This document shows positions 26,935 through 64,000 of a DNA stretch of 64,000 bases, piece after piece. The stretch is from a candidate division CPR2 bacterium GW2011_GWC2_39_35 (GTDB taxonomy: Bacteria > Patescibacteriota > CPR2), in the NCBI GenBank assembly GCA_000995065.1, contig LBWX01000002.1, forward strand, positions 159,708 to 223,707. The letters run 5' to 3'. Below the pieces are notes generated by a model, which was given only the letters and a program-made list of their open reading frames with translations, ran no database searches and was not told where the DNA came from. How positions within the stretch are numbered: position 1 is the first letter of the stretch; each line of letters opens with the position of its first letter. The position numbers and the translations under genes were made by a program.

Positions 26935-26973
26935 CCTAATTTCTAACCCCTATAAAAACCTATTTAAATAGCT

Positions 26974-29116: not shown

Positions 29117-29226
29117 AAATTTCTAATAACCAACGACAAATTATCAAAAATATTTTTAGACATTAGGATTTTAGAAATTGAGGTTTGATTAGAAATTAGT
29201 AATTAGAGCCATTAGAAATTAAATCC
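29117..29226. repeat. Family-Y AT-rich inverted-repeat element (attagaaattaggaattagag motif)
   Basis: gattagaaattagtaattagagccattagaaatt closely matches 62574-62608 and, in reverse complement, 56478-56520 and 62391-62430. Confidence 0.5.
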
Positions 29227-38419: not shown

Positions 38420-38430
38420 ATTTAAAAAGT

Positions 38431-38476
38431 AAAAAGGGTCGAACACTCATTAGAGCGTTCGACCCTTTTTACTTTT
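38431..38476 (+). terminator. Rho-independent terminator after efp
   Basis: AAAAAGGGTCGAACactcattagagcGTTCGACCCTTTTTacTTTT: a 13-bp stem followed by a T-run. Confidence 0.6.
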
Positions 38477-46618: not shown

Positions 46619-46940
46619 AGGCGATAGCAAACAAACTATTTTAGCGGCGATCCTTATTATTGTAATTGGTGGCAGCGCCTTCTTTTTTTACAGCTTAAAC
46701 AAAGGTAAAAAGACAAGCGGAGTTAAGGCCAAACCCTTGCCGTTTACCGGTAAGTATGACGTGGAAGGATTTAATAAGTTTCTAATGATTAAGGAAAACG
46801 AAGAAAGGCCATTTTACGCAGTTGTGCCGCCAGATCCGGCTCAAAGCATCTGTCGCAACATTTTTACGGGCAAAAAAAGGGACTTTAGTGCCGAAGAGAA
46901 AGCAATCTGTGAGGGTGTAGGAGAAGAAAAAAAGAACTAA
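46608..46940 (+). CDS. Small single-TM protein in the PilP position of the pilus operon
   Basis: 110 aa with TM ILAAILIIVIGGSAFFFY and a short periplasmic domain with two Cys. Overlaps pilO and abuts pilB. Confidence 0.4.
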   Translation: MKTKGDSKQTILAAILIIVIGGSAFFFYSLNKGKKTSGVKAKPLPFTGKYDVEGFNKFLMIKENEERPFYAVVPPDPAQSICRNIFTGKKRDFSAEEKAICEGVGEEKKN

Positions 46941-48724: not shown

Positions 48725-48732
48725 AGGAGAAA

Positions 48733-48846
48733 ATGTCAAATTACAAAGCTCAAATGCCAAATCAAATCCTAAGTTCAAATGTCAAATTATTTGATATTAA
48801 GTCATTTAAAATTCATTTGGTATTTTGATTTTGACATTTGATATTT
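48733..48846. repeat. Family-X ~115-bp inverted-repeat element (aaatgtcaaat...tttgacattt) between pilB and pilT
   Basis: Homologous along its length to 51261-51373 and 57698-57815. Terminal arms TGTCAAAT / ATTTGACA. Confidence 0.55.
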
Positions 48847-48864
48847 TTAACTTCGGGAGGGAAT

Positions 48865-49932
48865 ATGGTTCAAACAGTTAAAATAGAGACATTACTAGAA
48901 GAAGTCTTAAGGCAGGATGCCTCCGACCTTCATTTATCAGTCGGAGTTCCGCCAACTTTAAGAGTAGATGGAAGGCTTACGCCTTTGTCGGAATATCCTC
49001 CGCTAACGCCGGAACTTGCCGAAAGTCTTGTTTTTCAGATAGTTGATGATAATCAAAAAGAAATTTTGATTCGAGATAAGGAAGTGGACTTTTCTTTTGC
49101 CTTTGGCGATGTAGCAAGGTTTAGGGCAAATGCATATCATCAAAGAGGGAACGTTGGAATTGCTTTAAGGCTTATTCCGGTAAAAATAAGAGGCCTGGAA
49201 GAACTAAACTTACCAAAAACCTGTACTGCTTTTACGCAGTACCCCAGAGGCTTAGTTCTAGTTACCGGACCTACCGGCTCCGGTAAATCCACTACTCTTG
49301 CTGCAATGATTGACACCATAAACAAAGACCGTGCGTGCCACATTATCACTATTGAAGATCCGATTGAATATAATCACGTTAATAAGAAAGCCATTGTTGA
49401 GCAAAGAGAAGTTCATTATGATACTCGATCCTTTGCAGCTGCTTTAAGGTCGGCCCTTCGTGAAGATCCGGATGTTGTTTTAATCGGTGAGATGCGGGAC
49501 TTAGAGACGATTTCTTCGGCTATTACTATTGCTGAGACCGGACACTTGGTGCTTGCAACTTTGCATACCAATAATGCGGCCCAATCTGTAGATAGAATTG
49601 TCGACGTTTTTCCACCGCATCAGCAGCAGCAGATTAGAGTCCAGCTGGCCGGCATCTTGCAGGGAATTGTTTCTCAGAGGTTAATTCCGGCTATTGGAGG
49701 CGGCAGGGTTGCGGTGGCCGAAATTCTTGTTGCGACGCCGGCGGTTCGAAATATTATTAGGGAAGGAAAAACTCATCAGCTAGAAGGCGTCATCCAAACA
49801 GGAACTGAGTTTGGTATGATTACCATGGATGCGGCTCTTGCCAGCTACGTAAAGGCCGGGAAAATTACACTGGATGAAGCAAAAAGTTATGCTATCGATA
49901 TTCCTCAATTGGAAAGGTACATAAGAGGCTAA
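48865..49932 (+). CDS. pilT: Twitching-motility ATPase PilT
   Basis: Walker A GPTGSGKSTTLAAMID, ITIEDPIEY, and AHLVLATLHTN motifs. Ribosome-binding site GGGAGGG lies 4 nt upstream of ATG 48865. Confidence 0.9.
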   Translation: MVQTVKIETLLEEVLRQDASDLHLSVGVPPTLRVDGRLTPLSEYPPLTPELAESLVFQIVDDNQKEILIRDKEVDFSFAFGDVARFRANAYHQRGNVGIALRLIPVKIRGLEELNLPKTCTAFTQYPRGLVLVTGPTGSGKSTTLAAMIDTINKDRACHIITIEDPIEYNHVNKKAIVEQREVHYDTRSFAAALRSALREDPDVVLIGEMRDLETISSAITIAETGHLVLATLHTNNAAQSVDRIVDVFPPHQQQQIRVQLAGILQGIVSQRLIPAIGGGRVAVAEILVATPAVRNIIREGKTHQLEGVIQTGTEFGMITMDAALASYVKAGKITLDEAKSYAIDIPQLERYIRG

Positions 49933-49933
49933 A

Positions 49934-51145
49934 ATGATTTCATTTGTTTACACTGCTAAGACTATAGAGGGGCAGCTTGTTACCGGCGAGATCAATGCGC
50001 CGGATGCAAATACTGTTGCTCGGATGCTAAATGAGCGTCAGCTCTATCCGATGAGGATAGAAGCTAAAAAGAGCTCCAATATCTTAAATTTGAGTTTTTT
50101 TGAAGGAGTTTCCACCAAAGACAAGGCGCTGATTATAAGGCAATTTTCTACCTTAATAATTGCTGGTTTGCCCGTTGCCCAAGCCCTCCAGGTGTTAATA
50201 AAGCAAATTGACAAACCTCATCTTCAAAAGATCTTCATAAAGATTTTAAAAGACATCGAAAATGGCAGTAGTTTATCCGAGGCTTTTTCCCGCTTTCCAA
50301 AAGTTTTTTTAACGACAGATATTAGTCTTATTAAATCGGGAGAGGCTTCCGGTACCTTGGATGTCGTTCTAAAAAGAATGGCAAAGCAGCTGGAAAAAGA
50401 GCAGGCTTTGCATTCAAAAATAAAAAGCGCCATGATTTATCCTTCTTTCGTGGTAGTGGTTGTTATTGGGGTAATTGCCATTATGCTGATGTACGTAATG
50501 CCGAAATTATCCAGCCTGTATGCCGGCTACAAAGGGAAGCTCCCGGCTATTACTCAGCTGATGCTTGATTTAAGTAATTTCCTAATTCATAGCTGGTGGA
50601 TGATTATTATTGGACTTGTACTTCTTGCAGTATCCGGCAGAGCTTTTATTAATACCCCAAACGGTCGCTATATGTGGGATCAAACCAAGCTTGCTATTCC
50701 GGGTATCGGCGCCCTGGTAGAAAAGATAATTTTAGCAAGATTTACAAGAACGCTTGGCACCTTAATGGGAGCAGGAGTACCGGTTTTGGACTCTCTAATG
50801 ATTGCCTCCAAGTCTTGCGGCAATGTAATCTATGAGATAGAAGTTAGAAAGGCGGCGGAAGCGGTAAAAGGCGGTGCGGCGTTGTCCGATCCGTTAAAGA
50901 AAAACCCTCATTTTCCGGCTGTTGTGGGACAAATGATAAACGTTGGGGAACAAACGGGGGAAATGGACGAGATGCTAGAGGGTCTTGCCAACTATTACGA
51001 GGAAGAAGTTGATAATATAATTAAGGGCTTGTCATCGCTTCTAGAGCCGATTATAATTGTGGTATTAGGAGTAGTAGTTGGTGGCATATTAGTAGCCATT
51101 ATGCTGCCGATATACAGTTTGTCACAAGTGATGTTTAAAAAGTAG
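49934..51145 (+). CDS. pilC: Type IV pilus platform protein PilC (GspF family)
   Basis: Duplicated GspF domain with three TM segments. The conserved Gly-rich motif GEQTGEMDEML is present. Confidence 0.85.
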   Translation: MISFVYTAKTIEGQLVTGEINAPDANTVARMLNERQLYPMRIEAKKSSNILNLSFFEGVSTKDKALIIRQFSTLIIAGLPVAQALQVLIKQIDKPHLQKIFIKILKDIENGSSLSEAFSRFPKVFLTTDISLIKSGEASGTLDVVLKRMAKQLEKEQALHSKIKSAMIYPSFVVVVVIGVIAIMLMYVMPKLSSLYAGYKGKLPAITQLMLDLSNFLIHSWWMIIIGLVLLAVSGRAFINTPNGRYMWDQTKLAIPGIGALVEKIILARFTRTLGTLMGAGVPVLDSLMIASKSCGNVIYEIEVRKAAEAVKGGAALSDPLKKNPHFPAVVGQMINVGEQTGEMDEMLEGLANYYEEEVDNIIKGLSSLLEPIIIVVLGVVVGGILVAIMLPIYSLSQVMFKK

Positions 51146-51192
51146 GCTAATGAGTTGATAGGCGAATAAGATACGTCATTTCTGCTGGCACT

Positions 51193-51238
51193 AGTCATTC
51201 TCGCGAAGGCGGGTCCTACGACTCGTACGAGAATCCAG
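51193..51238. repeat. GTCATYC-type hairpin element
   Basis: GTCATTCTCGcgaaggcgggtcctacgactcgtaCGAGAATCCAG. Same terminal motif as 26203-26232. Confidence 0.45.
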
Positions 51239-51260
51239 TGCAGGTGAAAAAAGGAGTTTA

Positions 51261-51373
51261 ATGTCAAATGTCAAAGCTCAAATTTCAAATCAAGTTCTAA
51301 TGTTAAATGCTTTAAATTGGTCATTAAGTCATTTGTCATTCATTTGATATTTGTAATTTGGCATTTGGATTTA
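51261..51373. repeat. Family-X inverted-repeat element directly upstream of the major pilin gene
   Basis: atgtcaaatgtcaaagctcaaat...gtcatt...catttgatatttg...ttggcatttggattt aligns with 48733-48846 and 57698-57815. Confidence 0.55.
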
Positions 51374-51393
51374 ATAATATCTAGGAGGGAATA

Positions 51394-51897
51394 ATGAAGA
51401 AATTTAAGAAAATTAGAGGGGGTGGTGCTAGAGGTTTTACCTTAATCGAGCTATTGGTGGTTATGGCCATTATCGCTATCTTAGTAACGCTTATGATCTG
51501 GGCGATTAATAACGCCAGGATGCAGCAGCGAAATACCCAAAGAAGAAATGTTGTCCAAACTATTAAGACTTCCTTGGAGTCTTATTATAGCTCCAAGAAG
51601 GCTTATCCGGATACTGCTGATGACTCTGTTACTGGCTTTAGTTTAATTGATCCTGACGGAGGAGCTGCTGCGTATTTAAAGGGTTATGTTAAAGATGCCC
51701 CAATTGCCCAGCTTCAGGATCCATCAGGAGAAGAGACAAGGATCTGTTATGAATCGAATATAGGTGCTAAATATTCTCTTGTGATGTTGCCTGAACCTAT
51801 GGATGCTACAGAAAATTGTCCCGAATTATGGGGAACGGATAGACCACTTACTGCAGCAAATGACCTTCCTGATTACGAAGACTTCTCTCAATATTAA
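51394..51897 (+). CDS. pilA: Type IV pilin (major pilin candidate)
   Basis: Prepilin leader MKKFKKIRGGGARG|FTLIELLVVMAIIAIL with Glu+5. Ribosome-binding site GGAGGGAATA-ATG. Confidence 0.8.
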   Translation: MKKFKKIRGGGARGFTLIELLVVMAIIAILVTLMIWAINNARMQQRNTQRRNVVQTIKTSLESYYSSKKAYPDTADDSVTGFSLIDPDGGAAAYLKGYVKDAPIAQLQDPSGEETRICYESNIGAKYSLVMLPEPMDATENCPELWGTDRPLTAANDLPDYEDFSQY

Positions 51898-51930
51898 AAC
51901 TCACTAAAGCGCTACCTGGATAATTAAGAA

Positions 51931-52767
51931 ATGATAATATTTGCAATAACCTTTGGCTTAATAACCGGTTCTTTCCTTAATGCCTACGAATATCGTAAAC
52001 GCACCAAGACTAAAAACGTCTGGCACGGGAGGTCCTTTTGCCCCAAATGTAAGCATAAACTTGGAGCAATGGATTTATTTCCCGTTTTAAGTTATCTTTT
52101 GCTTCAGGGAAGATGCCGGTATTGTAAAAAGCCGATTTCCACCCAGTATCCGATTGTGGAGATGGTGGCCGCCGCTTTGTTCGGTCTAATCTACTGGCAT
52201 TTTTTCCCATCAAACCTTCTAAACCCGATCGATTTTTCTAGCCAAGACATACTTTTAAAATCACTAGGGACTTTAGCCTGGTTTTACTTTGCTTCTGTTC
52301 TAATTCTGGTGGTGATCTCGGACTTAAAAGAGATGATTATTCCGGATGAGGTCGTCTTACCGGCGATAGTAGTGGCTTTTATTTACGGTTTAATAGCATC
52401 AACCTTAGGAGGTTTAGAGTCAGGATATCTTGTGTCTCGGCTTGGGATGCAGCTAATCGCCGGAATAGTTGGCAGCGGCTTCTTTTACTCTATGATTGTT
52501 GTTTCTAAGGGTAAGTGGATGGGGGGCGGAGACGTAAAATTAGCGGCTTTTATGGGATTTGCTCTCGGCTGGCCGCTTATTTTCATTGCTCTTCTTCTGG
52601 CTTTTATCTTAGGATCAATATTCGGAATCGCAATCATTGTTTTAAGGCAAAAAAAATTTGCCGATGCTATTCCTTTCGGGCCGTTTTTAGCTGCCGGAAC
52701 GGTGCTTGCTATTCTTTGGGGCAATGTGGTTCTTACTTGGTACCTGGATAAGCTTATTTTGCTATGA
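51931..52767 (+). CDS. pilD: Prepilin peptidase PilD (A24 family)
   Basis: N-terminal CPKC...CRYC zinc knuckle, multiple TM helices, and conserved Asp-containing GGGDVKL motif. Confidence 0.8.
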   Translation: MIIFAITFGLITGSFLNAYEYRKRTKTKNVWHGRSFCPKCKHKLGAMDLFPVLSYLLLQGRCRYCKKPISTQYPIVEMVAAALFGLIYWHFFPSNLLNPIDFSSQDILLKSLGTLAWFYFASVLILVVISDLKEMIIPDEVVLPAIVVAFIYGLIASTLGGLESGYLVSRLGMQLIAGIVGSGFFYSMIVVSKGKWMGGGDVKLAAFMGFALGWPLIFIALLLAFILGSIFGIAIIVLRQKKFADAIPFGPFLAAGTVLAILWGNVVLTWYLDKLILL

Positions 52768-53390
52768 AACAGGTTTTAAATAAAAGAGGCTATACGTTAA
52801 TAGAAATTGTGGTAGTGATGGCTTTAATTGCAGTAACAACGCTTTTTGCGTTGCTGCCGGCACTTACCAATCGCCGAAGTCAATTAGAATTCGAGACTCG
52901 GGCGCACGAGGTCTTAGGGGAAATTAAGTATGCCCAAAGCTTGGCCAGAGGTGTCATTTGGGAAAATACCGGCGGCTCTAATTTTTCCCCTAAAGCAGTT
53001 TACGCTAAGCTTTATAATGAAGACGATGTTTTGAAATTAGAAATAGTTGGCTATGACAGGGATGCCGATCCATCATCTCCCGTTCATAAAGCCCTGACCT
53101 TTAAGGATCTTAAGATCGATAACTTGAGGGCAGGCGCTATAGATAAGGGTTCTGGCGACACTCTATTCGCCTGCTTCTCCGTGCCGACGGGATTTGCCTC
53201 CGACTATATTGGCAGCGAAGGCAGCTTGGCTTCCAAGTGGGTTTATACGCCGGCTCCGTTTAATTATGCCGACCTGGCGGAACACGAAGACGTTACTTTG
53301 ACGCTAGGAGACGATGAGTTTAAAATCGACTTAAGCTTAAATTTTTCTTCCGGAGATATCTATATAGATAAAGGAGCGGACTTAAAATGA
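52764..53390 (+). CDS. Minor pilin / pseudopilin (GspH/FimT-like)
   Basis: Prepilin leader MKQVLNKRG|YTLIEIVVVMALIAV. Confidence 0.6.
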   Translation: MKQVLNKRGYTLIEIVVVMALIAVTTLFALLPALTNRRSQLEFETRAHEVLGEIKYAQSLARGVIWENTGGSNFSPKAVYAKLYNEDDVLKLEIVGYDRDADPSSPVHKALTFKDLKIDNLRAGAIDKGSGDTLFACFSVPTGFASDYIGSEGSLASKWVYTPAPFNYADLAEHEDVTLTLGDDEFKIDLSLNFSSGDIYIDKGADLK

Positions 53391-53848
53391 GGATCGGCAA
53401 AAGAGGCGAAACAATCCTAGAGGTTGTTGTGGCAATGGGAATCTTGGGTCTTATTATGGCCGGTACGATTTCTATTATTATTCAAATGGGGAATTTGGGA
53501 TACGTAGCCAAATCCAGAGAAGAGGCAACGAAGCTGGCCCAACAGACCATGGAAAACATTTATACTTACAAAGAGAAGAATAAGTGTGATTTTTATAACA
53601 TTGCGGGAAGCAAGGATATCAATAGCGACGGGGAATTGGTTAATTATTCTATTGATGACGGTTACAAGAGGCTGGATGCTACTGATTTTCGAGGTATCGA
53701 AGAAGTTTGGCGCAAAATCGTTATCGAGAGATTAGATTATGATCCTCAAAAATTATTAGTTACGGTAAAGGTAAGATGGCAGAGTAAAGGCATGCCGGAA
53801 CAGTTTTATTCGGTTCAAGCCATTATGGCGGATTGGCAAAGCTTATGA
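53387..53848 (+). CDS. Minor pilin (PilV-like), atypical leader
   Basis: MRIGKRG|ETILEVVVAMGILGLIMAG has an N-terminal hydrophobic helix and Glu+5. It is translationally coupled to its neighbours. Confidence 0.5.
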   Translation: MRIGKRGETILEVVVAMGILGLIMAGTISIIIQMGNLGYVAKSREEATKLAQQTMENIYTYKEKNKCDFYNIAGSKDINSDGELVNYSIDDGYKRLDATDFRGIEEVWRKIVIERLDYDPQKLLVTVKVRWQSKGMPEQFYSVQAIMADWQSL

Positions 53849-54423
53849 GAAACAATAAAGGTTTTACTTTGATTGAATATATTGTGGCGACTGTTCTACT
53901 GGCACTTCTAATATTATTTGCGGTTAATATTTACGTTACGGTTAGCCGAAATCTAATCTTAGCTAACGAGACCAGAACAATGCAAAGCGAAATCAGGAAT
54001 ATTTCGGATGCTATTTCGAGAGTGGCTAGCAACTCGGTTTATGCGGAAATCGACTCTCCCACCCCCTATAGCGACGGGGTGAATCCGGTAGAAGTGGGCA
54101 AGATCAGTTTTTGGACAAAATACGATCCGCAATCTAGGGATGATATACTTCCGGACTATATCTTAGAGCATGTTGTAACAGGGGGTGAAAATACCCTAAA
54201 GCTAACCAGACTAATAAATAATGTTCCGGTTACACAACCGATGGTTAACACCAGCTACCAGATCAGCGAATTTAAAGCGATGCTCAAAAAAAGCGTGCCG
54301 CCGGTTCTGGATTTTGAAATTCATCTTAAAGGCACCGGTGAAGCCGAGGACCGCTATGCTTTTGAATCTAACGAAACTTATATCAGGTCGAGTGTGGCGA
54401 TAGGAGGTCAGCGTGGAGAATAG
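53833..54423 (+). CDS. Minor pilin (PilW-like)
   Basis: MAKLMRNNKG|FTLIEYIVATVLLALLI. Confidence 0.6.
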   Translation: MAKLMRNNKGFTLIEYIVATVLLALLILFAVNIYVTVSRNLILANETRTMQSEIRNISDAISRVASNSVYAEIDSPTPYSDGVNPVEVGKISFWTKYDPQSRDDILPDYILEHVVTGGENTLKLTRLINNVPVTQPMVNTSYQISEFKAMLKKSVPPVLDFEIHLKGTGEAEDRYAFESNETYIRSSVAIGGQRGE

Positions 54424-54427
54424 AGTG

Positions 54428-55471
54428 ATGAGCCAAAAAAATAAAGGTGCTGCCTTGCTCTGGGCCATTATATTTATCGGCGCCTTATCTATTGTTATCG
54501 CTAACTTAGCCGTTATGACTTATAACGAATCCCGCCTAACAAGCAATTCCGATCTTTCGTATAAGGCTTATGCGGCAGCCCAATCCGGGATTGATTACGG
54601 CTTGTTTAAAATAAGGGAGGAGATCGCAGAAAGCGGTATTCAGAATTTTGACAGTTCGGTAGCTCCACTTGTCTACACTTTCTGGAATGGTACTCCTATT
54701 ATCGATGAAGATGAGCAGGAAACCAAGGTGGAAGTAACCTGGACAAAAGAATTAGATCTAAGTAATCCGTGTCCTGATTGTAAGCCAAAAATCACGGTTG
54801 ATAGCGTGGCGACGGTTACTGCCGGCGAAAAAACCGCCAAAAGAAGACTCCAGGTGATCCACGATTATAAAAGGACAATTCAGGCGGTAACGTTTGAAAA
54901 TGGTAATGCCGACATTAACACGCTTAACACCGAGTTAAAGGATCGTTTGAATGCTATTGTAACTGTTGATATCTATAATCCGCCCTCAGTAAATCCGCCT
55001 GCAATACCGTTGGAAGATAGAGGCGATAAGCCGGAATTTAAGCTGACTTTTAATAAAAAAGGCGGCATTCCGATCGAGATGGTAATTAATGCTGATAAGT
55101 ATAACGGGGCGGTGCTTCAGTCTGATAAGAACTACCGTTGGCGCTTTAATTATGTCGGTGGCGCCGGAGTGCTGGCCACTTTAGAAGAAGCAAGTGATAT
55201 TGATATTGATCTTAATCCTGGCACAGTATGTGACGTTAACCTTAACCCTGGTACAAAATGCGAGAGGCGCTGGAAATGTGGGGCCGAAGAATCATTTTTC
55301 GAAGAGGATAAGAATACTGATTTCTGGACGAAAAATCAAAATGAACTCGCCTCGATTAGCATTAACCCTAATGGTACTGTTGCCGGCGATCAGAATAACC
55401 ACTATCTCTTAGTAATTAATGGTCAGATAGACAATATTGTTGGAATCGGCAGAGAATCGATCCAGAATTAG
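54428..55471 (+). CDS. PilX-like minor pilin / pilus tip-associated protein
   Basis: PilX_N-type N-terminus KNKGAALLWAIIFIGALSIVIANLAV followed by a large beta domain. Confidence 0.55.
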   Translation: MSQKNKGAALLWAIIFIGALSIVIANLAVMTYNESRLTSNSDLSYKAYAAAQSGIDYGLFKIREEIAESGIQNFDSSVAPLVYTFWNGTPIIDEDEQETKVEVTWTKELDLSNPCPDCKPKITVDSVATVTAGEKTAKRRLQVIHDYKRTIQAVTFENGNADINTLNTELKDRLNAIVTVDIYNPPSVNPPAIPLEDRGDKPEFKLTFNKKGGIPIEMVINADKYNGAVLQSDKNYRWRFNYVGGAGVLATLEEASDIDIDLNPGTVCDVNLNPGTKCERRWKCGAEESFFEEDKNTDFWTKNQNELASISINPNGTVAGDQNNHYLLVINGQIDNIVGIGRESIQN

Positions 55472-56433
55472 CTGCGGCGTCGGCCGTGGAAAGCTTGGTG
55501 GACTTCTTTTAGCTGCTTATTGGTAAGATGAGTGTAAATTTGCGTTGTCGTAATAGAGCTATGCCCCAGCATCGATTGGACCGATCTAATGTCGGCGCCA
55601 TTTATAAGCAAATCGGTTGCAAAACTATGGCGTAGCGTATGAGGCGTCACTTTTTTTACGATTCCGGCGGCTCTGGCATAGGCATTGACGATTCGCTGCA
55701 CGCTTCTTGACGTTAGGCGCAAATATTCGCCGTCTTCGATCTCATCCTTGGAGCCGCTATATCTAATAAATAGCGGCTTAAAATTATCCGCTCTTAGCTT
55801 TAGATACTCATTTATCCAGTGCTTGGCTCCGTCAGACATAAAAACGACCCGGTCTTTAGAGCCTTTTCCTCTTACCATAAATTCGCCTCGATCTAGGTTT
55901 ACTTGGGTTCTATTTAGACCAACAAGCTCCGAAACCCTGAGGCCGGTGGAGAACAATAGCTCTAATATTGCTTTATCTCTTACGGAAATAATCTTATTTG
56001 TCTCTGTTTGTTTCTGCTTTAAAGGAGCGTCCATAAGCCTTACCACTTCCTCAAATTCTAAAAACTCAACTTGCTTTCTTTTGGCGTCTCCAAGCTCGAT
56101 CTTTTCGGCGGATAAACTCCTCACATCTCTTTTGGCCAAATATTTAAGGAAAGCTCTAAGGGCGATGACATGATAGTTTTGAGTAATTTTTTTTAAAGTA
56201 TTGCCTTTTTGGTCTGTCATCCGGTTTAAATGCAATCTATAAGAACGCACTAAGTCCATATCGATTTTTTGAGGACCAAAATCGTCGCCCTCTTTACTTT
56301 CGGCAAATTCTAAGAAGCGTCTCAGATAGTGCTCGTAGTTTAAAATAGTAAGCTCCGAGTGATTTTTTTCTAATTCACAGTATTCTAAAAAATCGGAAAT
56401 TAAGTCGGCGGTGGTCATATGCCCATGATACAA
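55468..56433 (-). CDS. Tyrosine site-specific recombinase, XerC/XerD family
   Basis: C-terminal catalytic region LRHSFATDLLINGADIRSVQSMLGHSSITTTQIYTHL with catalytic Tyr. N-terminal SAM-like core-binding domain. Confidence 0.8.
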   Translation of the reverse strand: MYHGHMTTADLISDFLEYCELEKNHSELTILNYEHYLRRFLEFAESKEGDDFGPQKIDMDLVRSYRLHLNRMTDQKGNTLKKITQNYHVIALRAFLKYLAKRDVRSLSAEKIELGDAKRKQVEFLEFEEVVRLMDAPLKQKQTETNKIISVRDKAILELLFSTGLRVSELVGLNRTQVNLDRGEFMVRGKGSKDRVVFMSDGAKHWINEYLKLRADNFKPLFIRYSGSKDEIEDGEYLRLTSRSVQRIVNAYARAAGIVKKVTPHTLRHSFATDLLINGADIRSVQSMLGHSSITTTQIYTHLTNKQLKEVHQAFHGRRRS

Positions 56434-56477
56434 GATTTCTTTGGTCAGATCAAAGTTTAAAATATGAACAGTAAATA

Positions 56478-56598
56478 AATATCTAATTCCTAATTACTCT
56501 AATTGACCTAATAAAATCCCAATGACAAAATGTCTAAAGTTCTTGTTTGGAAATTGGGATTTATTTAGAATAATTAGAAATTAGGTAAATTAGACATT
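56478..56598. repeat. Family-Y inverted-repeat element in the divergent xer/rsmH promoter region
   Basis: Arms atctaattcctaattactctaattgacctaataaaatccc and gggatttatttagaataattagaaattaggtaaattagacat flank a ~45-bp core. Confidence 0.5.
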
Positions 56599-57697: not shown

Positions 57698-57815
57698 AAA
57701 TGTCAAATGACAAAGCTCAAATGTCAAATCAATTTTAAAAAATCTAAATGTTAAAAATTTAGGCATTTAGTCATTAATTATTCATTTGAGATTTAGATTT
57801 TGACATTTGGATTTA
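57698..57815. repeat. Family-X inverted-repeat element between convergent rsmH and BON-domain genes
   Basis: aaatgtcaaatgacaaagctcaaatgtcaaatcaa...catttgagatttagattttgacatttggattt. Third copy of the family. Confidence 0.55.
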
Positions 57816-57820
57816 ACAAA

Positions 57821-59365: not shown

Positions 59366-60152
59366 AAGAAAAATCAAAATTTCACCTAAAGCTAAGAATG
59401 CTTATATTATTTTTGCGAGCGTTCTAATCATTGCGTACCTAGTTAACGGCTATATTTTGGGGCTTGGAAATTTAAAATTTGCAAGCGAAGCAGAATCTAT
59501 TTTTATGGAGAGTGAAAAATATTGGAAGGCGACTGATTTGGTAAATGGGGGAAGCATCGATCTTGCAAAAGACGACGAGTTTTTTAAAAAAATGAATTCC
59601 GTCTCTAAGGACTCTCTAAAAACAATGGAATCATTTAAACCGCCAAAGAGAGGACTTGCTTTACAAAAAGAGCTTAAGGAATATTTCGAGATTTCCGATG
59701 AAATTTCGGCCAATTCTTTGGCAATTTCCGATTATGTGCAAAAGGTTCAAAAGGTAAATAAAGATATGGAAACAGCTGGCGCTTCCGGGACAGACCCCTT
59801 AGGAGACTTAGAAAAATGGAGAGTGATGATAGGAGAGGATCTTCAGGTTGTTAATAAAGCAGATCCTAAGCCATCCTTTAAAAAGACAAATGAGGCGCTT
59901 TTAAAAGACTTAGAAAACATTTCTGTAAAGCTTGATGATCTTATAAGGGCGATTAAAGAAAAAAATCAGGACAACGTAAAGAAAGCCACTGAGGACATTG
60001 GTATTCTTAAATTCGAATCAGTGTCGCCAACTTCCACGGAAATTTTAGAAGACATCATCTCTCCCCAAAAATTAAATGGCTTTAGGGATTTGGATGTAAG
60101 GATTAAATCATCAATCAAATCCCTAAAGAGAAGCCGGCTGGTTTTGTTCTAA
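59358..60152 (+). CDS. Membrane-anchored helical protein, unknown function
   Basis: N-terminal TM (AYIIFASVLIIAYLVNGYILGL), then a K/E-rich helical domain. Overlaps the methyltransferase stop by 8 nt. Confidence 0.4.
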   Translation: MPRRKIKISPKAKNAYIIFASVLIIAYLVNGYILGLGNLKFASEAESIFMESEKYWKATDLVNGGSIDLAKDDEFFKKMNSVSKDSLKTMESFKPPKRGLALQKELKEYFEISDEISANSLAISDYVQKVQKVNKDMETAGASGTDPLGDLEKWRVMIGEDLQVVNKADPKPSFKKTNEALLKDLENISVKLDDLIRAIKEKNQDNVKKATEDIGILKFESVSPTSTEILEDIISPQKLNGFRDLDVRIKSSIKSLKRSRLVLF

Positions 60153-60231: not shown

Positions 60232-60357
60232 CTACTCCCTTCCCACTAAGACACGATATAATATTCTTCGACCTTGTGGAGAAGTACATTAATGTAATTC
60301 TCCACTCCGTTTCACTTCGCTCGAATAATATATCACGGAATGGCGGGAAGGGAGTAG
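60232..60357. repeat. ~125-bp nested palindromic element
   Basis: Outer 13-bp perfect inverted repeats CTACTCCCTTCCC / GGGAAGGGAGTAG enclose inner inverted repeats (gtggagaa / ttctccac; ttcgac / cgctcgaa). The inner motif gtttcacttcg...ctcgaa recurs at 20262-20284. Confidence 0.45.
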
Positions 60358-60536
60358 CGATAAAATCAGCTGTACAATTTTGGGAACTAAATTTTAAAAA
60401 ACCTTGTAATTTAAGCATAAGAGGTGTATAATTTTTGATTGTGAAACAGTAGTTTAACATTGTGAGAAAGAAAACCCGCCCGGATTTTTGTTAGTTAAGT
60501 GTTGGTTTAAGAGATGGAAGGGGAGGAAAAGAAAGT

Positions 60537-61400
60537 ATGGCAGTAGCAGTAATTAATGAACTAGGAGTAAACAGTAACAAGAGCAACAAACTAGAGGGCG
60601 CAAGATCGGTATTGATCACATCGGCTTTTATGGCCGATAGGGTAGCTCCAGGGATTGCCCAGGAAGATGGAACATGGCCTTATGTGTTTGCGGCTATCGA
60701 TCCTGACTTCGCGGATTTTTTTGGCGAGTTGGTAGACAATCATAGCTCTTTTCTGGGTAAATCGGGGGGCGAACAAGGGTTTCTGCTAGATATGATCACT
60801 CATGTTGTTGCAAGCAAAGAAAAGGTTGAGCGCATTGTTATTGCAACCACGGCTGATAGCGAAGTCGAGGCAAGATCATTAAGAGATCTTATTGTGAGGC
60901 GTCTCCGAATCTCGCCTCGAATAGTTGCAGTGGAAGTGAGAGTTTTTGAAATCAGCGAGGCGAACCATCGCATGATGCTCGTATGCTGCATCGATGATAG
61001 ATTCATCGAAGAAGCAATGAATCATGTCAAATGCATAGAGCGACAGAAGAACAAAGGATCTGATAATAAAGATTCTGAAATCTGCATCGTTGCCAAACCT
61101 GGCAGCACGCTTGTTTTTGCTGGGCGTATAGGGCAGGAAATACAGTTTGGTTTGATTGACCACTTGGTAGAGTTTGTTGCCAAGTCCTCTATTGACACTC
61201 TTTGCGCCATTGCTCACCGACGGACATGTGCCGCTTACGATTTCATCGATTGCACTGATGAAAATGGGATTGCTGATCTCTTCTCTTTTAAGCGGTATAT
61301 CGAGTCACAGTGCGCGGCCTCTGGCAAGGAAGTGAAAGTGATTATCCTGGTTCAGGATGAAGACGGCTTCTCGGATCCGGTGGAAAAGAATCTGCTTTAG
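60537..61400 (+). CDS. Hypothetical protein with CxDxR and H-x3-C motifs (paralog A of a tandem pair)
   Basis: 287 aa. Contains ...MLVCCIDDRFIEE... and ...IAHRRTCAAY.... The N-terminus (MAV.V...DG..PYV) is alignable with the downstream gene. Confidence 0.5.
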   Translation: MAVAVINELGVNSNKSNKLEGARSVLITSAFMADRVAPGIAQEDGTWPYVFAAIDPDFADFFGELVDNHSSFLGKSGGEQGFLLDMITHVVASKEKVERIVIATTADSEVEARSLRDLIVRRLRISPRIVAVEVRVFEISEANHRMMLVCCIDDRFIEEAMNHVKCIERQKNKGSDNKDSEICIVAKPGSTLVFAGRIGQEIQFGLIDHLVEFVAKSSIDTLCAIAHRRTCAAYDFIDCTDENGIADLFSFKRYIESQCAASGKEVKVIILVQDEDGFSDPVEKNLL

Positions 61401-61557
61401 CTCTGTCGATAGATTAAATTCGCCTTAGAAGCGGGAATATAAGGGTTTGCCAATACGGCTCATATGCTAACGGCAAACCTTTTCGTTTTTGTAGGCAAAA
61501 TAAAACTTTTATGCTATTATTTTAAACTGTAATTAAATTAAAATAAAAGGAGTAAGT

Positions 61558-62388
61558 ATGGCCGTTAAGGTAAAGATAAGCCCATTAGAGCTTAGAGAAG
61601 AAATCAAAAAAAACCGGGAGATAAGTCCGGTAAGAATAATCCTTACAACTCCCGAGCTAAGTGCAAAACTTGCCTTAGAGGCATTCGAGAAAGATGGCCG
61701 TCATCCTTATGTAGTTTCTAATTTTACAATAAGCGAAGGTTTTTTAAGGGAAAAAGAAGATGGCGTTAAAAGCTATGGTCCAACCCAGCTTAAAATTGCG
61801 CTTCATGCCGAAACCATCAAATATATTGATATTGTTTTGCCAAAACACGGCTATGGTTATAAGAAAAGAGAAGCTTCCGAAGACGCTTTAGCTCTAAAAG
61901 AAATGATAGAAAAAGCGATCGGGAAAAGGGCAATTAAAGTGTCGGCCAAAGTGGAAAATATGGAGATAGATTATTCAAAGTTTGATATTGTTATTTATCA
62001 GTGTGTAGATTATCGATTCTTTCTAGAAAATGTGTCTAATTTGATTCTCGAAAAAGGCATGATACCGCTTGTTATTAGTAGTGCCGGTGCTGTTGCTATC
62101 TTAAAGGATAGGGTGAATCCTGATATGAAAAAAAGCATTAAAGATCAAATAATTAGAGCTTTTAAATTATCTGGAGCGAAGCTGTTTCTGATTCTAAATC
62201 ATGGCAATCAGTGTGGCGGTTATAAAAATTGCGGTTGTAGCGGGGCCGAGGCTCTCTCGGATGTGGCGATCGTAAAAGAAATGGCCACAAAAATCCTAAA
62301 GGACGGCGGTTTTTACGGCGTCCAGGTTGTCTCCAGATACCAAACTCTGGATGCATATTATAGTGTGGAGTTTAGAGATATTACATAA
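61558..62388 (+). CDS. Hypothetical protein with beta-carbonic-anhydrase-like motifs (paralog B of tandem pair)
   Basis: 276 aa. Contains VIYQCVDYRFF (C-x-D-x-R) and, 66 residues later, LILNHGNQCGGY (H-x-x-C-G-G), as in the beta-CA zinc site. Confidence 0.5.
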   Translation: MAVKVKISPLELREEIKKNREISPVRIILTTPELSAKLALEAFEKDGRHPYVVSNFTISEGFLREKEDGVKSYGPTQLKIALHAETIKYIDIVLPKHGYGYKKREASEDALALKEMIEKAIGKRAIKVSAKVENMEIDYSKFDIVIYQCVDYRFFLENVSNLILEKGMIPLVISSAGAVAILKDRVNPDMKKSIKDQIIRAFKLSGAKLFLILNHGNQCGGYKNCGCSGAEALSDVAIVKEMATKILKDGGFYGVQVVSRYQTLDAYYSVEFRDIT

Positions 62389-62390
62389 GT

Positions 62391-62610
62391 AAATTTCTAA
62401 TTCCTAATTATTCTAATTAATCTAATAAAGTTCCAATTACGAAATAAATTTTCAATTGTACCATTTTTTAATCTTTATTGAATTTACAATGACGCAATTT
62501 TCAAACATATAACAACGAAAAAATAGTTTGAAGATTGACTACTTAAAAATTGAAAATTAAAATAATTGGGATTTGATTAGAAATTAGGAATTAGAGTAAT
62601 TAGAAATTTT
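62391..62610. repeat. Family-Y element: ~40-bp terminal inverted repeats flanking a 130-bp AT-rich core
   Basis: Left aaatttctaattcctaattattctaattaatctaataaag, right gggatttgattagaaattaggaattagagtaattagaaattt. These are reverse complements of each other. Confidence 0.5.
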
Positions 62611-62686: not shown

Positions 62687-63055
62687 ATGCCAAAAATATT
62701 AATTGTTGAGAGCGATGAAGGAACTAGATATTTATATAAAGTGGCGGTTTCTTTTCAGAAGATCGAAGTAGAAGAAGCAGAAAGCCTGGAAGAGGCAATC
62801 GCAATCCTTAAAAATCATAAGTTCGATCTTGTGCTTCTTGATATTATGACCTCAGACTTTGATGACCTCAATATTTTTGAGGAGCTAAAGAAGGCAAAAG
62901 ACGGTATCCCGGTAGTTATTGTTTCCGATTTAAAGAATTCTTCGGCTATGAAACATGCTTCGATTTTAGGAGCTTGTGATTATCTCGTAAAAAGTGAAAA
63001 TTCTGTTGGTGAGATAATTAAAAAAGTTAGATCAATTGTCAATGAAGGAAAGTAA
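62687..63055 (+). CDS. Stand-alone response-regulator receiver (CheY-like REC) protein
   Basis: ILIVESDE...DLVLLDIMTSD...PVVIVSD...K pattern with the phospho-acceptor Asp in LLDIM. AAAAGGAGG ribosome-binding site upstream of ATG 62687. Confidence 0.75.
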   Translation: MPKILIVESDEGTRYLYKVAVSFQKIEVEEAESLEEAIAILKNHKFDLVLLDIMTSDFDDLNIFEELKKAKDGIPVVIVSDLKNSSAMKHASILGACDYLVKSENSVGEIIKKVRSIVNEGK

Positions 63056-64000
63056 CACAAAAGACATCTTTTTAGAATTTGATAGGGCGCAAAAGTTATC
63101 AGGATTAGTTACTGGGGCTTCGCTTCTTATCACAATTATTGGAGTCTACTTAATTCCAGCTGAGGAGGTTTTAAGAACTCAAATTTTAATTGTGATTGCT
63201 CTTGTAGCAATGTTTTCCGGTATCTATTACAATAGCCCGAAGCTTTACTTAAACCCGAAGTTCCGTTTTCTGCCGGATATCGCTTTTCTTACAGCGGGCG
63301 CTTTTTCGGTCTTATCTTCTGGCCATTATGGGCCGTTCTTTTTAATTTTTCTTTTCTTAATTATTACGATAGATGCTTATATTTTTTCTTTAAAGGAATA
63401 CGTAGTCGTTGTTATTGCCAGTCTTATTCTTATTAATGTTGGCAGTATTTTTATTTGGAAAACAAATCCGGGCCTTGCCTTTATAATTCTGATTCAGAGC
63501 TTTAGCCTTATTGGTCTTGCTATCGTGAGCAGGCTCTTTGCCGGTTATTCCCTTAAAGTAAGGGAACAAAAGGAAGCCTTGGAAAAATTAAATAAACAAA
63601 TCTTAAGAGACAAAAGAGAATCGCTTGACCTATTGGATTCTATTGGTGACGGCATTTTATCTATTAACGGTGATGGAAAAATTTATCTTCATAATAAAAG
63701 TTCAGTTGATCTCCTGGGAATAAAAAATTTGGAAGGAAAAAACCTGAATGAAGTTTTTAATCTGTACAGCAGGGATAAGCTTCCGGTAGACATTCTTAAG
63801 GGCATTACCGATAGTTCGCCGCTAATCAGGACAGATCTTTATTATAAAAAAGGTCGACAATGGCTTAGGTTTTATGTTCATTTAAACCCGCTTTTTGCTG
63901 ATGGTGCGCTGATCGGTCTTATTATCCTTTTTAGGGACATTACTAAAGAAAAACAGATGGATGAGCAAAACACGGAGTTTGTGGCCGTAGCATCGCACGA
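63042..64000 (+). CDS. Sensor histidine kinase (multi-TM + PAS + HisKA), 3'-truncated by the window edge
   Basis: ORF open to the window end, with ≥5 TM helices and a PAS-like segment (LDSIGDGILSINGDGKIYLHNKSSVDLLG). It ends in the H-box EFVAVASH. Overlaps the receiver gene stop by 14 nt. Confidence 0.7.
   Translation, partial: MKESNTKDIFLEFDRAQKLSGLVTGASLLITIIGVYLIPAEEVLRTQILIVIALVAMFSGIYYNSPKLYLNPKFRFLPDIAFLTAGAFSVLSSGHYGPFFLIFLFLIITIDAYIFSLKEYVVVVIASLILINVGSIFIWKTNPGLAFIILIQSFSLIGLAIVSRLFAGYSLKVREQKEALEKLNKQILRDKRESLDLLDSIGDGILSINGDGKIYLHNKSSVDLLGIKNLEGKNLNEVFNLYSRDKLPVDILKGITDSSPLIRTDLYYKKGRQWLRFYVHLNPLFADGALIGLIILFRDITKEKQMDEQNTEFVAVASH

What the first reader, a model, noticed from the sequence alone, without database searches (positions are those of the whole stretch)
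60537..62388. Tandem paralogous proteins with beta-carbonic-anhydrase-like zinc-site motifs next to a two-component pair
Both proteins share an alignable N-terminal ~130-aa region (MAV.V...DG..PYV...). Each also has a C-terminal domain containing C-x-D-x-R followed 66-76 residues later by H-x-x-C. Paralog B has the full beta-CA signature pair QCVDYRF ... NHGNQCGG, as in CxDxR / HxxCGG. Paralog A is degenerate (CIDDRF ... HRRTCA). Overall the proteins do not look like ordinary beta-CAs. The N-terminal extension is not standard, and I do not see the typical dimer-interface helices. They may represent a divergent zinc-binding family. They are followed by a stand-alone receiver and a PAS histidine kinase.
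Basis: inference. Interest (0 to 1): 0.55.

Follow-up and report, generated by a model that had tools for sequence, protein, structure and literature searches.

The report
Rare two-domain beta-carbonic-anhydrase-like proteins
Two neighbouring unannotated genes of a CPR2 (Patescibacteria) bacterium encode very divergent, internally duplicated relatives of beta-carbonic anhydrase that keep the zinc-site residues, belong to an extremely rare family, and sit next to hydrogenase-type genes in every available genomic context.

Summary
Both ORFs are real: A at 60537-61400 (287 aa) and B at 61558-62388 (276 aa). They are homologous over almost their whole length (18% identity, E=3e-5).

No Pfam, NCBIfam or PDB sequence match reaches significance. 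An exhaustive HMMER scan of 1.84 billion representatives finds only seven relatives, in A-like and B-like subfamilies.

All members that cover the region keep C-[VI]-D-x-R-[FW] and H-x3-C-[GACV]-[GA]-[YF]. The His-Cys spacing is H-x3-C, not the H-x2-C of beta-CAs.

An AlphaFold model of the C-terminal domain (pLDDT 87) hits beta-carbonic anhydrases in all of its top 19 PDB matches by Foldseek (probability 0.97-1.00, query TM 0.49-0.59). Profile comparisons align the Cys/Asp/Arg, Gly and His/Cys motifs in register.

The N-terminal domain looks like a degenerate copy of the C-terminal one (hhalign E=1e-5). That suggests a single-chain pseudo-dimer as in CsoSCA.

The best reading is a new, very divergent beta-CA-superfamily metalloprotein that probably hydrates CO2 or a related small molecule. 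Activity is untested.

The receiver/kinase adjacency holds only in CPR2. The shared neighbour across all contexts is a [NiFe]-hydrogenase or FHL-like gene.

The parts
60537..61400 (+). Paralog A (287 aa), A-type subfamily of the two-domain beta-CA-like family. N-domain is about residues 1-137 and C-domain about residues 138-287.
   Evidence: ORF. Called as a gene in public contigs. Named 'hypothetical protein' HBG82063.1/KKR18480.1. Homologous to B and to P0006 and P0007.
60987..61004 (+). A: C151-I-D153-D-R155-F motif (putative metal-ligand Cys plus the Asp-Arg dyad)
   Evidence: Read from the sequence. Conserved in all 5 members that cover this region.
61215..61238 (+). A: H227-R-R-T-C231-A-A-Y motif (putative His and Cys ligands, H-x3-C)
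   Evidence: H and C are invariant in 7 of 7 members.
61558..62388 (+). Paralog B (276 aa), B-type subfamily. N-domain is about residues 1-135 (nt 61558-61962) and C-domain residues 136-276 (nt 61963-62385).
   Evidence: ORF. Identical to P0001, found on at least 10 contigs (the look-up read 20). AF2 full-length model has pLDDT 82.2 and pTM 0.84 with two alpha/beta domains. Orthologue is 38.6% identical in CPR2 GW2011_GWC2_39_10.
61558..61962 (+). B N-terminal domain: probable degenerate duplicate of the C-domain. It lacks C/D/R/H/C and has a conserved P50-Y51.
   Evidence: hhalign of C-domain profile against N-domain profile: probability 82.5%, E=9.8e-6, 95 columns. Score 38.2, against 199 column shuffles with mean 10.5, sd 2.1 and max 19.1. 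Same order of secondary-structure elements.
61963..62385 (+). B C-terminal domain with a beta-carbonic-anhydrase-like fold
   Evidence: Domain-only AF2 model: pLDDT 87.4, pTM 0.83. Foldseek against PDB: ranks 1-19 are all beta-CAs, for example 1g5c at E=1e-3 and probability 1.0, with query TM 0.49-0.59 in those ranks (0.61 at rank 48). Best PDB sequence hit of the domain HMM is beta-CA 6y04_A, E=0.88, with all motifs aligned. hhalign against the beta-CA core profile gives P=1.3e-3.
62002..62019 (+). B: C149-V-D151-Y-R153-F motif at the C-terminal end of strand beta1 of the C-domain
   Evidence: Aligned to the CxDxR of beta-CAs by HMMER and hhalign.
62200..62223 (+). B: H215-G-N-Q-C219-G-G-Y motif at the end of strand beta3 and the following loop (H-x3-C)
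   Evidence: hhalign aligns H with H and C with C of beta-CAs, with a one-residue insertion.
60404..60432 (+). Promoter-like site upstream of A (TTGTAA-17-TATAAT)
   Evidence: Consensus scan only.
61441..61490 (+). Intrinsic-terminator-like hairpin plus U-tract downstream of A. It suggests A is transcribed separately from B.
   Evidence: RNA fold dG -17.7 kcal/mol, z -3.05, 0 of 200 shuffles as stable. Followed by UUUUCGUUUUU.
61492..61520 (+). Promoter-like site upstream of B (TAGGCA-17-TATTAT with a TG extension)
   Evidence: Consensus scan only.
62687..63055 (+). Stand-alone receiver (REC) gene, 298 bp downstream of B, with its own promoter-like site at 62535-62563
   Evidence: Pfam Response_reg E=1.3e-17. 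Promoter-like site. 80% identical to the L011 orthologue.
63042..64000 (+). PAS histidine kinase, which runs off the window end. In full contigs it is followed by a second REC and a 4-gene group-3b [NiFe] hydrogenase.
   Evidence: Gene table of identical contigs L001, L003 and L004. Pfam on L011 orthologues. Large subunit's best PDB match is sulfhydrogenase I.

Best explanation
A and B are two anciently diverged members of a very rare, previously unannotated protein family of the beta-carbonic-anhydrase superfamily.

Each protein is an internal tandem of two alpha/beta domains.

- The C-terminal domain has the beta-CA fold. It carries the full metal-site set at the topologically equivalent places: Cys at the end of strand 1, within C-x-D-x-R, and His at the end of strand 3 followed by Cys in the next loop.
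- The N-terminal domain is a degenerate copy that has lost these residues.

The inferred mechanism is as follows.

1. Cys149, His215 and Cys219 (B numbering; Cys151, His227 and Cys231 in A) bind one Zn2+.
2. The Asp151-Arg153 dyad positions and activates the zinc-bound water, or gates the site as in type II beta-CAs.
3. The zinc hydroxide attacks CO2 (or a look-alike such as COS or CS2).
4. The dead N-domain plays the role of the second protomer that completes the active-site cleft in ordinary beta-CA dimers. This would make a single-chain pseudo-dimer, as in CsoSCA but with the domain order reversed.

Shown here: gene reality, family rarity, motif conservation, the beta-CA-like predicted fold of the C-domain, sequence evidence for internal duplication, and the hydrogenase-type gene neighbourhood.

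Inferred only: zinc binding, catalytic activity, substrate, pseudo-dimer geometry, and any functional coupling to the neighbouring hydrogenase or two-component genes.
For: - ORFs and start sites.
- A/B homology over about 240 aa.
- Family of 7 among 1.84e9 representatives, split into A-like and B-like types.
- C, D and R are invariant in 5 of 5 members; H and C in 7 of 7. This holds although B's orthologue is only 38.6% identical between two CPR2 genomes whose REC is 80% identical.
- Full-length model pLDDT 82, pTM 0.84, two like-folded domains.
- C-domain model pLDDT 87.
- Foldseek of the C-domain against 350,542 PDB chains: ranks 1-19, and about 36 of the top 50, are beta-CAs, with probability up to 1.00 and query TM up to 0.61.
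- The family HMM's best hit among 177,635 PDB sequences is a beta-CA, with CxDxR, the Gly after strand 2 and the H..C motif all in register.
- hhalign against the beta-CA core profile: P=1.3e-3, above all 200 column shuffles.
- N-domain against C-domain hhalign: E=9.8e-6, score 38 against a shuffle maximum of 19.
- Precedents: the CsoSCA pseudo-dimer with one dead half (PMC12918739), and DabA as another barely recognisable beta-CA-like protein with Cys/Asp/His/Cys at non-canonical spacing (bioRxiv 10.1101/476713).
Against: - No significant sequence match to Pfam Pro_CA or Pro_CA_2. The best is E=0.2, for one member.
- The PDB HMM hit has E=0.88. hhalign probability is only 18.6%, and the observed score of 23.75 only just exceeds the best shuffle at 23.60.
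- hhalign against a single E. coli Can sequence gives nothing.
- Foldseek E-values for the C-domain are only 1e-3 to 1e-2. The full-length model does not retrieve beta-CAs, or the tandem beta-CAs 1ddz and 2fgy, in its top 50.
- His-Cys spacing is H-x3-C rather than the H-x2-C found in the beta-CA core sequences compared here and, from general knowledge, in canonical beta-CAs.
- Model coordinates could not be inspected, so clustering of the five residues in space is inferred from topology only.
- The structure rests on an alignment of 7 sequences. Only 1 of the 5 C-domain models was confident (87 against 67-73).
- There is no biochemical evidence.
Confidence: 0.6

Rival explanations
1. The family is a non-catalytic metal- or ligand-binding protein built on a beta-CA scaffold. 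It could sense CO2/bicarbonate, redox state or a metal, and signal to the adjacent REC/PAS-kinase/REC system that would control the downstream hydrogenase.
For: - Conserved adjacency B - REC - PAS-HK - REC - group-3b hydrogenase in two CPR2 genomes that are only 39-54% identical in most proteins.
- Fast sequence evolution of B.
- Non-canonical H-x3-C spacing.
- Purified DabAB2 likewise shows no obvious free CA activity (bioRxiv 10.1101/476713).
Against: - The Asp-Arg dyad, whose known role in beta-CAs is catalytic or gating, is invariant.
- The two-component genes are absent next to the family members in L009, L010 and L014.
- B and REC are separated by 298 bp of 22% GC DNA carrying a separate promoter-like site.
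Confidence: 0.17
2. The family is a hydrolase for a CO2 look-alike (COS, CS2, cyanate-derived species) rather than a carbonic anhydrase. COS hydrolase and CS2 hydrolase are precedents within the beta-CA family.
For: - COSase (3vqj) and CS2 hydrolase (3ten) are sequence relatives of the Cab-type beta-CAs that the C-domain resembles most.
- The altered His-Cys loop could reshape the substrate pocket.
- The neighbouring group-3b hydrogenase is of the sulfhydrogenase type.
Against: - No COSase or CS2 hydrolase appears among the top 50 structural matches.
- Nothing in the neighbourhood points to sulfur-compound metabolism apart from the name of the hydrogenase class.
Confidence: 0.1
3. The family is a metal-handling accessory (Ni/Zn/Fe chaperone or assembly factor) for [NiFe]-hydrogenase-type modules. 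The Cys/His/Cys/Asp site would bind and deliver metal.
For: - Every independent genomic context carries a hydrogenase-family gene within 0.1-3 kb.
  - CPR2: group-3b hydrogenase plus a HypC-like gene.
  - L009: HycG/NuoB-like gene.
  - L010 and L014: HycE-like gene.
Against: - The HycE-like and HycG-like neighbours in L009, L010 and L014 have lost most metal-ligand cysteines (canonical motifs recalled from memory). They would not need Ni or FeS insertion.
- To my knowledge no hydrogenase maturation factor has a beta-CA fold.
- The invariant Asp-Arg dyad is unexplained by this reading.
Confidence: 0.06
4. The resemblance to beta-CA is coincidental. These would be generic Rossmann-like two-domain proteins whose conserved Cys/His serve another purpose, for example another cofactor or a CARF-like ligand-binding role.
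For: - All sequence statistics against beta-CA are sub-threshold.
- The full-length model hits only generic alpha/beta proteins at TM of about 0.25.
- There is a weak CARF1 hit for A's N-domain (E=0.021) and a Csm6 CARF protein at rank 36.
Against: - The domain-only structural search ranks beta-CAs 1-19 out of 350,542 chains.
- Independent sequence methods align three motifs in the same order and register.
- The motif residues occupy the same strand ends as in beta-CAs.
- The CARF hit is not significant.
Confidence: 0.07

Closest known systems
Cab-type (clade D-like) beta-carbonic anhydrases, e.g. M. thermoautotrophicum Cab (PDB 1g5c), 6y04, Rv1284 (1ylk); Pfam PF00484
   Same: - Predicted alpha/beta fold of the C-domain (top Foldseek hits).
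- Cys in C-x-D-x-R at the end of strand 1, a small-residue/Gly motif after strand 2, and His at the end of strand 3 followed by Cys-Gly.
- Invariant Asp-Arg dyad.
   Different: - No significant sequence similarity.
- H-x3-C instead of H-x2-C.
- About 10-20 extra residues between the Cys and His motifs (65-76 residues here against 53-59 in the beta-CA core sequences read).
- An added N-terminal paralogous domain.
- Not shown to form homodimers, bind zinc or catalyse anything.
CsoSCA (carboxysomal beta-CA subclass, PDB 2FGY)
   Same: - A single chain holds two diverged beta-CA-like domains from an internal duplication, and only one keeps the zinc site (PMC12918739; here).
- Too divergent to be recognised as a beta-CA from sequence.
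   Different: - Here the dead domain comes first and the site-bearing domain second.
- There is no extra encapsulation domain and no carboxysome genes.
- No detectable sequence similarity.
- 2FGY is not among the top structural matches.
DabA of DAB inorganic-carbon pumps (PF10070/DUF2309)
   Same: - A barely recognisable beta-CA-like site with Cys, Asp, His and Cys at non-canonical spacing (C351, D353, H524, C539).
- Genetic linkage to complex-I-family genes. In L010 a HycE-like gene, preceded by the C-terminus of a hydrophobic membrane protein, lies next to the A-like gene.
   Different: - DabA is about 830 aa and pairs with a PF00361 antiporter-like DabB.
- No Pfam PF10070 hit here.
- No DabB-type gene is seen next to A or B in the CPR2 genomes.

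Membership tests
Beta-carbonic anhydrase (Pfam PF00484 Pro_CA / PF20393 Pro_CA_2) | Significant match to the family's sequence profile | tested here: not met
   No Pro_CA hit at E<=1 for A or B. Among 7 C-domains, only one hits Pro_CA_2, at E=0.2. NCBIfam gives nothing.
Beta-carbonic anhydrase superfamily (fold level) | Beta-CA alpha/beta fold (parallel sheet core with the ligand-bearing strands adjacent) | tested here: met
   The C-domain AF2 model (pLDDT 87.4) retrieves beta-CAs at Foldseek ranks 1-19, with probability up to 1.00 and query TM 0.49-0.59 in those ranks (0.61 at rank 48). This is a predicted structure, not an experimental one.
Beta-carbonic anhydrase superfamily | Cys / His / Cys metal ligands at the equivalent sequence and topology positions | tested here: met
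   Cys is invariant in 5 of 5 members; His and Cys in 7 of 7. They are aligned to the beta-CA ligands by HMMER and hhalign. They lie at the ends of strands 1 and 3.
Beta-carbonic anhydrase superfamily | Asp-Arg dyad in C-x-D-x-R | tested here: met
   CVDYRF, CIDDRF, CVDFRF, CIDYRW and CIDHRF: 5 of 5 members.
Canonical beta-carbonic anhydrase | H-x-x-C-G spacing of the second ligand pair | tested here: not met
   All 7 members have H-x-x-x-C. hhalign needs a one-residue gap. The six beta-CA core sequences compared all have H-x-x-C.
Canonical beta-carbonic anhydrase | Dimer as the basic unit, with the active site at the interface | tested here: inconclusive
Carbonic anhydrase (function) | Zinc binding and CO2 hydration activity | not testable with these tools
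   Needs metal analysis and enzyme assays.
CsoSCA-type pseudo-dimeric beta-CA | One active and one degenerate beta-CA domain on one chain; carboxysome (cso) operon context | tested here: not met
   The two-domain active/dead arrangement is supported, though in reversed order. There is no cso or Rubisco context within the roughly 10 kb read on either side, and 2FGY is not a top match.
DabA (DAB pump, PF10070) | PF10070 domain and an adjacent PF00361 DabB partner | tested here: not met
   No PF10070 hit. No antiporter-like gene lies next to A or B in the CPR2 loci. Only a fragment of a membrane protein is seen in L010.

The most novel reading that the evidence does not exclude
The family may be the soluble CO2/bicarbonate-converting partner of hydrogenase- or complex-I-type modules.

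In L009, L010 and L014 it flanks an FHL-like module. The HycE-like and HycG-like subunits of that module have lost their NiFe and FeS cysteines, and a membrane subunit precedes them.

That arrangement would suggest a third, independent invention of an energy-coupled (vectorial) carbonic anhydrase. The two known cases are DabA-DabB and CupA/B-NDH-1. This one would be in non-autotrophic, ultra-small bacteria.

In CPR2 the same protein would be tied to a cytosolic H2-evolving hydrogenase under two-component control.
Probability: 0.1. Interest if true: 0.8.

Novelty: new variant of a known kind. Interest (0 to 1): 0.5.

Why it matters
Beta-CA-like active sites have repeatedly turned up in proteins that sequence searches could not recognise, such as CsoSCA and DabA. 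Each time this revealed new biology of inorganic-carbon handling.

Here a further, extremely rare lineage keeps the catalytic residues on a rebuilt scaffold: an internal duplication, one dead half, and H-x3-C spacing. Only seven representatives were found among 1.84 billion. It occurs in Patescibacteria/CPR2 and a few unidentified organisms, always beside hydrogenase-family genes.

If active, it would:
- extend the known sequence space of carbonic anhydrases;
- give a function to two 'hypothetical proteins' of a reduced CPR genome;
- offer a testable link between CO2/bicarbonate chemistry and hydrogen metabolism, or redox-dead FHL-like complexes.

If inactive, it would be an example of a CA scaffold recruited for sensing.

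Tried and rejected
**Searches that found little or nothing**
- The word-indexed protein search found only B itself. It found nothing for A, although A is in the collection.
- phmmer of A and B against PDB gave only noise.
- hhalign of the C-domain profile against a single E. coli Can sequence gave no signal. A 6-sequence beta-CA core profile was needed.
- Foldseek of the full-length model returned only generic alpha/beta proteins at TM of about 0.25. The domain-only model was decisive.
- The search for related loci with the whole-family alignment failed because no conserved stretch was available. With the B-type alignment it found only the sister CPR2 genome.
- Rfam on 59.5-64 kb returned only a long hairpin that mimics miRNA precursors.
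- PADLOC and PHROGs gave nothing, apart from a non-significant CARF1 hit for A's N-domain. A defence or phage reading was rejected.
- Literature searches found no earlier description of this family.

**Libraries and look-ups not available**

**Ideas tested and left unresolved**
- I tested whether A is a recent horizontal insertion. Its GC of 0.458 is only in the top 4% of windows and equals that of rsmH. The intergenic regions are too diverged from L011 to align. A is absent at the syntenic site of L011, but the direction (gain or loss) is unresolved.
Full report
**Observation**

Both have purine-rich ribosome-binding sites and start MAV.V.

BLASTP of A against B gives E=3e-5 at 18% identity, over A 15-248 and B 17-236. 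The two proteins are therefore homologous over nearly their full length, not only in the N-terminal 130 residues.

- CIDDRF is at A residues 151-156, and CVDYRF at B residues 149-154.
- The conserved His follows 76 residues later in A and 66 later in B.

A stand-alone receiver follows B (Pfam Response_reg, E=1.3e-17). A PAS histidine kinase follows the receiver.

**Family and rarity**

Neither protein matches any Pfam or NCBIfam model or any PDB sequence. The word-indexed search of 5.8 billion clusters returned only B itself.

An exhaustive HMMER profile search of 1.84 billion 50%-identity representatives found seven proteins:

| Protein | Description |
|---|---|
| P0001 | B itself |
| P0002 | Fragment of A |
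| P0003 | B-type; full length is 279 aa in candidate division CPR2 GW2011_GWC2_39_10, locus L011 |
| P0004 | B-type, 302 aa |
| P0005 | B-type remnant with an internal deletion |
| P0006 | A-type, 271 aa |
| P0007 | A-type fragment |

All public names are 'hypothetical' or 'uncharacterized protein'.

The window belongs to a candidate division CPR2 bacterium from groundwater metagenomes.

In the family alignment, the only columns invariant in all seven sequences are the His and the Cys of H-x3-C. The Cys, Asp and Arg of C-[VI]-D-x-R-[FW] are invariant in all five sequences that cover them.

This conservation holds although the protein evolves fast. Identities between the two CPR2 genomes are:

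| Protein | Identity |
|---|---|
| B | 38.6% |
| REC | 80% |
| rsmH | 54% |
| Kinase | 52% |

A is not degenerate. It keeps all five residues, and its C-A-A in place of C-G-G is the signature of the A-type subfamily (HGEGCAAF in P0006, HLEGCVAY in P0007).

**Structure**

AlphaFold2 on the 7-sequence alignment gives a confident full-length model of B (pLDDT 82.2, pTM 0.84). It has two alpha/beta domains, at residues 26-133 and 144-269, with the same order of strands and helices.

Foldseek of the full-length model against PDB gave only generic alpha/beta proteins at TM of about 0.25.

A model of the C-terminal domain alone (residues 136-276) has pLDDT 87.4 and pTM 0.83. The other four models scored 67-73.

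Its PDB search is dominated by beta-carbonic anhydrases:

- Ranks 1-19, and about 36 of the top 50, are beta-CAs.
- Examples are Cab 1g5c (E=1e-3, probability 1.00), CaNce103 6gwu, psCA3 4rxy, CafA 7coi and HICA 3mf3.
- Query-normalised TM is 0.49-0.59 in ranks 1-19 and reaches 0.61 at rank 48.

The motif residues sit where beta-CA ligands sit:

- Cys149 lies just after strand 1 of the domain.
- His215 is the last residue of strand 3.
- Cys219 lies in the loop before the next helix.

I could not read coordinates. The spatial clustering of these residues is therefore inferred from topology, not measured.

**Sequence-level link to beta-CA**

*PDB HMM search.* An HMM of the C-domain, searched against 177,635 distinct PDB sequences, has a beta-CA (6y04_A) as its best hit. 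The E-value of 0.88 is not significant. The alignment nevertheless puts C-x-D-x-R on C-M-D-T-R, the P-G after strand 2 on A-G-N, and H..C on G-H-E-C-C-G.

*Profile-profile comparison.* I read the core sequences of five Cab-type relatives from PDB alignments. I added E. coli Can, which I verified as identical to 1i6o, and aligned all six.

- hhalign of the family C-domain profile against this beta-CA core profile gives score 23.75, P=1.3e-3 and probability 18.6% over 65 columns.
- C, D, R, G, H and C are all aligned, with a one-residue gap between H and C.
- Two hundred column-shuffled controls gave mean 11.25, sd 2.49 and max 23.60. The observed score only just exceeds the best shuffle.

*Weaker tests.* A comparison with the single Can sequence shows nothing. 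Pfam on the isolated C-domains gives only one Pro_CA_2 hit, at E=0.2.

Taken alone, the sequence evidence is weak. Together with the structural ranking and the conserved residues, it makes homology to the beta-CA superfamily the best reading.

**Internal duplication**

hhalign of the C-domain profile against the N-domain profile gives probability 82.5% and E=9.8e-6 over 95 columns. The score of 38.2 compares with shuffles of mean 10.5, sd 2.1 and max 19.1.

The N-domain lacks all five site residues. Its only invariant residues are a Pro-Tyr and one Ile.

Canonical beta-CAs work as dimers with the site at the interface. CsoSCA is a single-chain pseudo-dimer with one dead half (PMC12918739). The likely meaning is that the N-domain replaces the second protomer.

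**Surroundings**

*Upstream of the pair:*
- a type IV pilus cluster at 46.9-54.4 kb and a Xer-type recombinase;
- rsmH, a BON-domain gene and a methyltransferase;
- a conserved 264-aa protein with no Pfam match and a hydrophobic N-terminal stretch (sequence; Pfam).

*Transcription signals around A and B:*
- A has its own promoter-like site.
- A is followed by an intrinsic-terminator-like hairpin (61441-61482, dG -17.7, z -3.05) and a U tract.
- B has its own promoter-like site.
- B is separated from REC by 298 bp of 22% GC DNA that carries another promoter-like site.

A, B and the REC-kinase genes are therefore probably separate transcription units.

*Downstream,* identical contigs and the sister genome show REC, PAS-kinase, REC and then four hydrogenase genes. 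The large subunit is closest to group-3b sulfhydrogenase I (5yxy/9e1j, E about 1e-66). It keeps its NiFe cysteines and is followed by a HypC-like gene.

The sister genome L011 has the same order but only the B-type gene. A is either a gain here or a loss there. A's GC of 0.458 is only mildly unusual.

**Contexts of the other family members**

- *P0004 (B-type, L009)* lies 200 bp upstream of, and on the same strand as, an Oxidored_q6 (HycG/NuoB-like) gene.
- *P0006 and P0007 (A-type, L010 and L014)* are each convergent with orthologous 30kDa+49kDa fusion genes.
  - Their best solved relative is E. coli formate hydrogenlyase subunit 5, HycE (7z0s_E, E=2.4e-74).
  - In L010 that gene is preceded by the C-terminus of a hydrophobic membrane protein.

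By comparison with the canonical motifs, which I recall from memory:
- The HycE-like proteins have Ser or Asp where the NiFe cysteines should be (ERVSGDSSFSH; C-terminus SYSGNDL).
- The HycG-like protein keeps only one of four FeS cysteines (GSTNACE, GDDA, GDPP).

These modules therefore look redox-dead.

All three independent kinds of context place the family next to hydrogenase-family genes, whereas the two-component system is seen only in CPR2. The contigs are short, so the link is suggestive rather than proven.

**Mechanism and rivals**

I commit to the following reading: a Zn(Cys)2(His) site with an Asp-Arg dyad, in a single-chain pseudo-dimer, that hydrates CO2 or a close analogue.

| Claim | Confidence |
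|---|---|
| Beta-CA-superfamily assignment | about 0.8 |
| Catalytic CA-type function | about 0.4 |
| Statement as worded in Best explanation | 0.6 |

Rivals:
- a non-catalytic sensor feeding the two-component system (0.17);
- a COS or CS2-type hydrolase (0.10);
- a metal chaperone for hydrogenases (0.06);
- a coincidental resemblance on a generic Rossmann-like fold (0.07).

**Comparison with known families and novelty**

The family works most like a Cab-type beta-CA and is built most like CsoSCA. Like DabA, it shows that the Cys/Asp/His/Cys site tolerates altered spacing.

It is not a member of Pfam PF00484, PF20393 or PF10070 by their thresholds. It also fails the canonical H-x2-C feature.

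I therefore file it as a new variant of a known kind: a new, very rare branch of the beta-CA superfamily with a new architecture.

Interest is moderate (0.5). It would be high only if the hydrogenase or FHL-like linkage reflects a new coupled CO2-hydration system.

Noticed in passing
window 60232-60357: A long imperfect hairpin lies in the 384-bp gap upstream of A (35-nt outer arms, inner stem-loop). RNA fold dG is -50.1 kcal/mol with z -6.7. Its only Rfam matches are plant miRNA-precursor models on both strands, which just reflects a long hairpin. Function unknown. No copy was found elsewhere in the window.
   Followed up: partly
window 62386-62445, 62564-62609, 56472-56531, 56561-56598, 29176-29220, 26922-26946: A dispersed AT-rich intergenic repeat is built on TAATTAG(A/G)AAT-like units (85-89% identity between copies). 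An inverted pair (62391-62418 and 62582-62609) brackets the promoter-like site upstream of the receiver gene. It could be a regulator-binding or promoter-associated element.
   Followed up: no
window 48732-48850, 51260-51377, 57699-57819: A second intergenic repeat family has three copies of about 50 plus 64 nt, rich in AATGTCAAATG / CATTTG units. The copies lie after pilB-like, pilC-like and rsmH genes. Meaning unknown.
   Followed up: no
L009:1322-1801; L010:1091-2650 (-); L014:425-1588 (-): The hydrogenase-like genes beside the other family members look redox-dead. The HycE-like large subunits (closest to E. coli FHL subunit 5) have Ser/Asp in place of the NiFe cysteines. The HycG/NuoB-like small subunit keeps only 1 of 4 FeS cysteines, with Asp substitutions in GDDA and GDPP. 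The canonical motifs were recalled from memory.
   Followed up: partly
L002:4978-5843 (equivalent to window 60896-60903); also window 59973-60069 and 60438-60458: In one public assembly of the same organism, gene A is split into 129-aa and 142-aa ORFs by a small indel (10 bases in place of 8). The upstream 264-aa gene carries a 97-bp deletion, and 21 bp are missing upstream of A. This is either a strain variant or an assembly error. Three other assemblies are identical to the window.
   Followed up: partly
L013:223-681 (P0005): A B-type relative on a 944-bp contig has an internal deletion. It removes the end of the N-domain and the whole C-x-D-x-R half of the C-domain but keeps the HGNGC motif. 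It is probably a decaying copy or a chimeric assembly.
   Followed up: no
window 11857-11923 and 38425-38476: Two near-perfect short palindromes: 30-nt arms at 97% with a 7-nt loop, and 24-nt arms at 96% with a 4-nt loop. They are probably strong terminators. Not examined.
   Followed up: no
window 62687-63055 vs L011:10961-11338: The stand-alone receiver is 80% identical between the two CPR2 genomes. Its neighbours are 35-54% identical (B 38.6%). This is unusually strong constraint on this small regulator.
   Followed up: partly
window 46940-55468: A type IV pilus gene cluster: PilB-like and PilT-like ATPases, a PilC-like platform protein, a prepilin peptidase and several N-methyl pilins. A Xer-type recombinase follows at 55468-56433 (-). 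This is typical CPR content and unrelated to the finding.
   Followed up: partly
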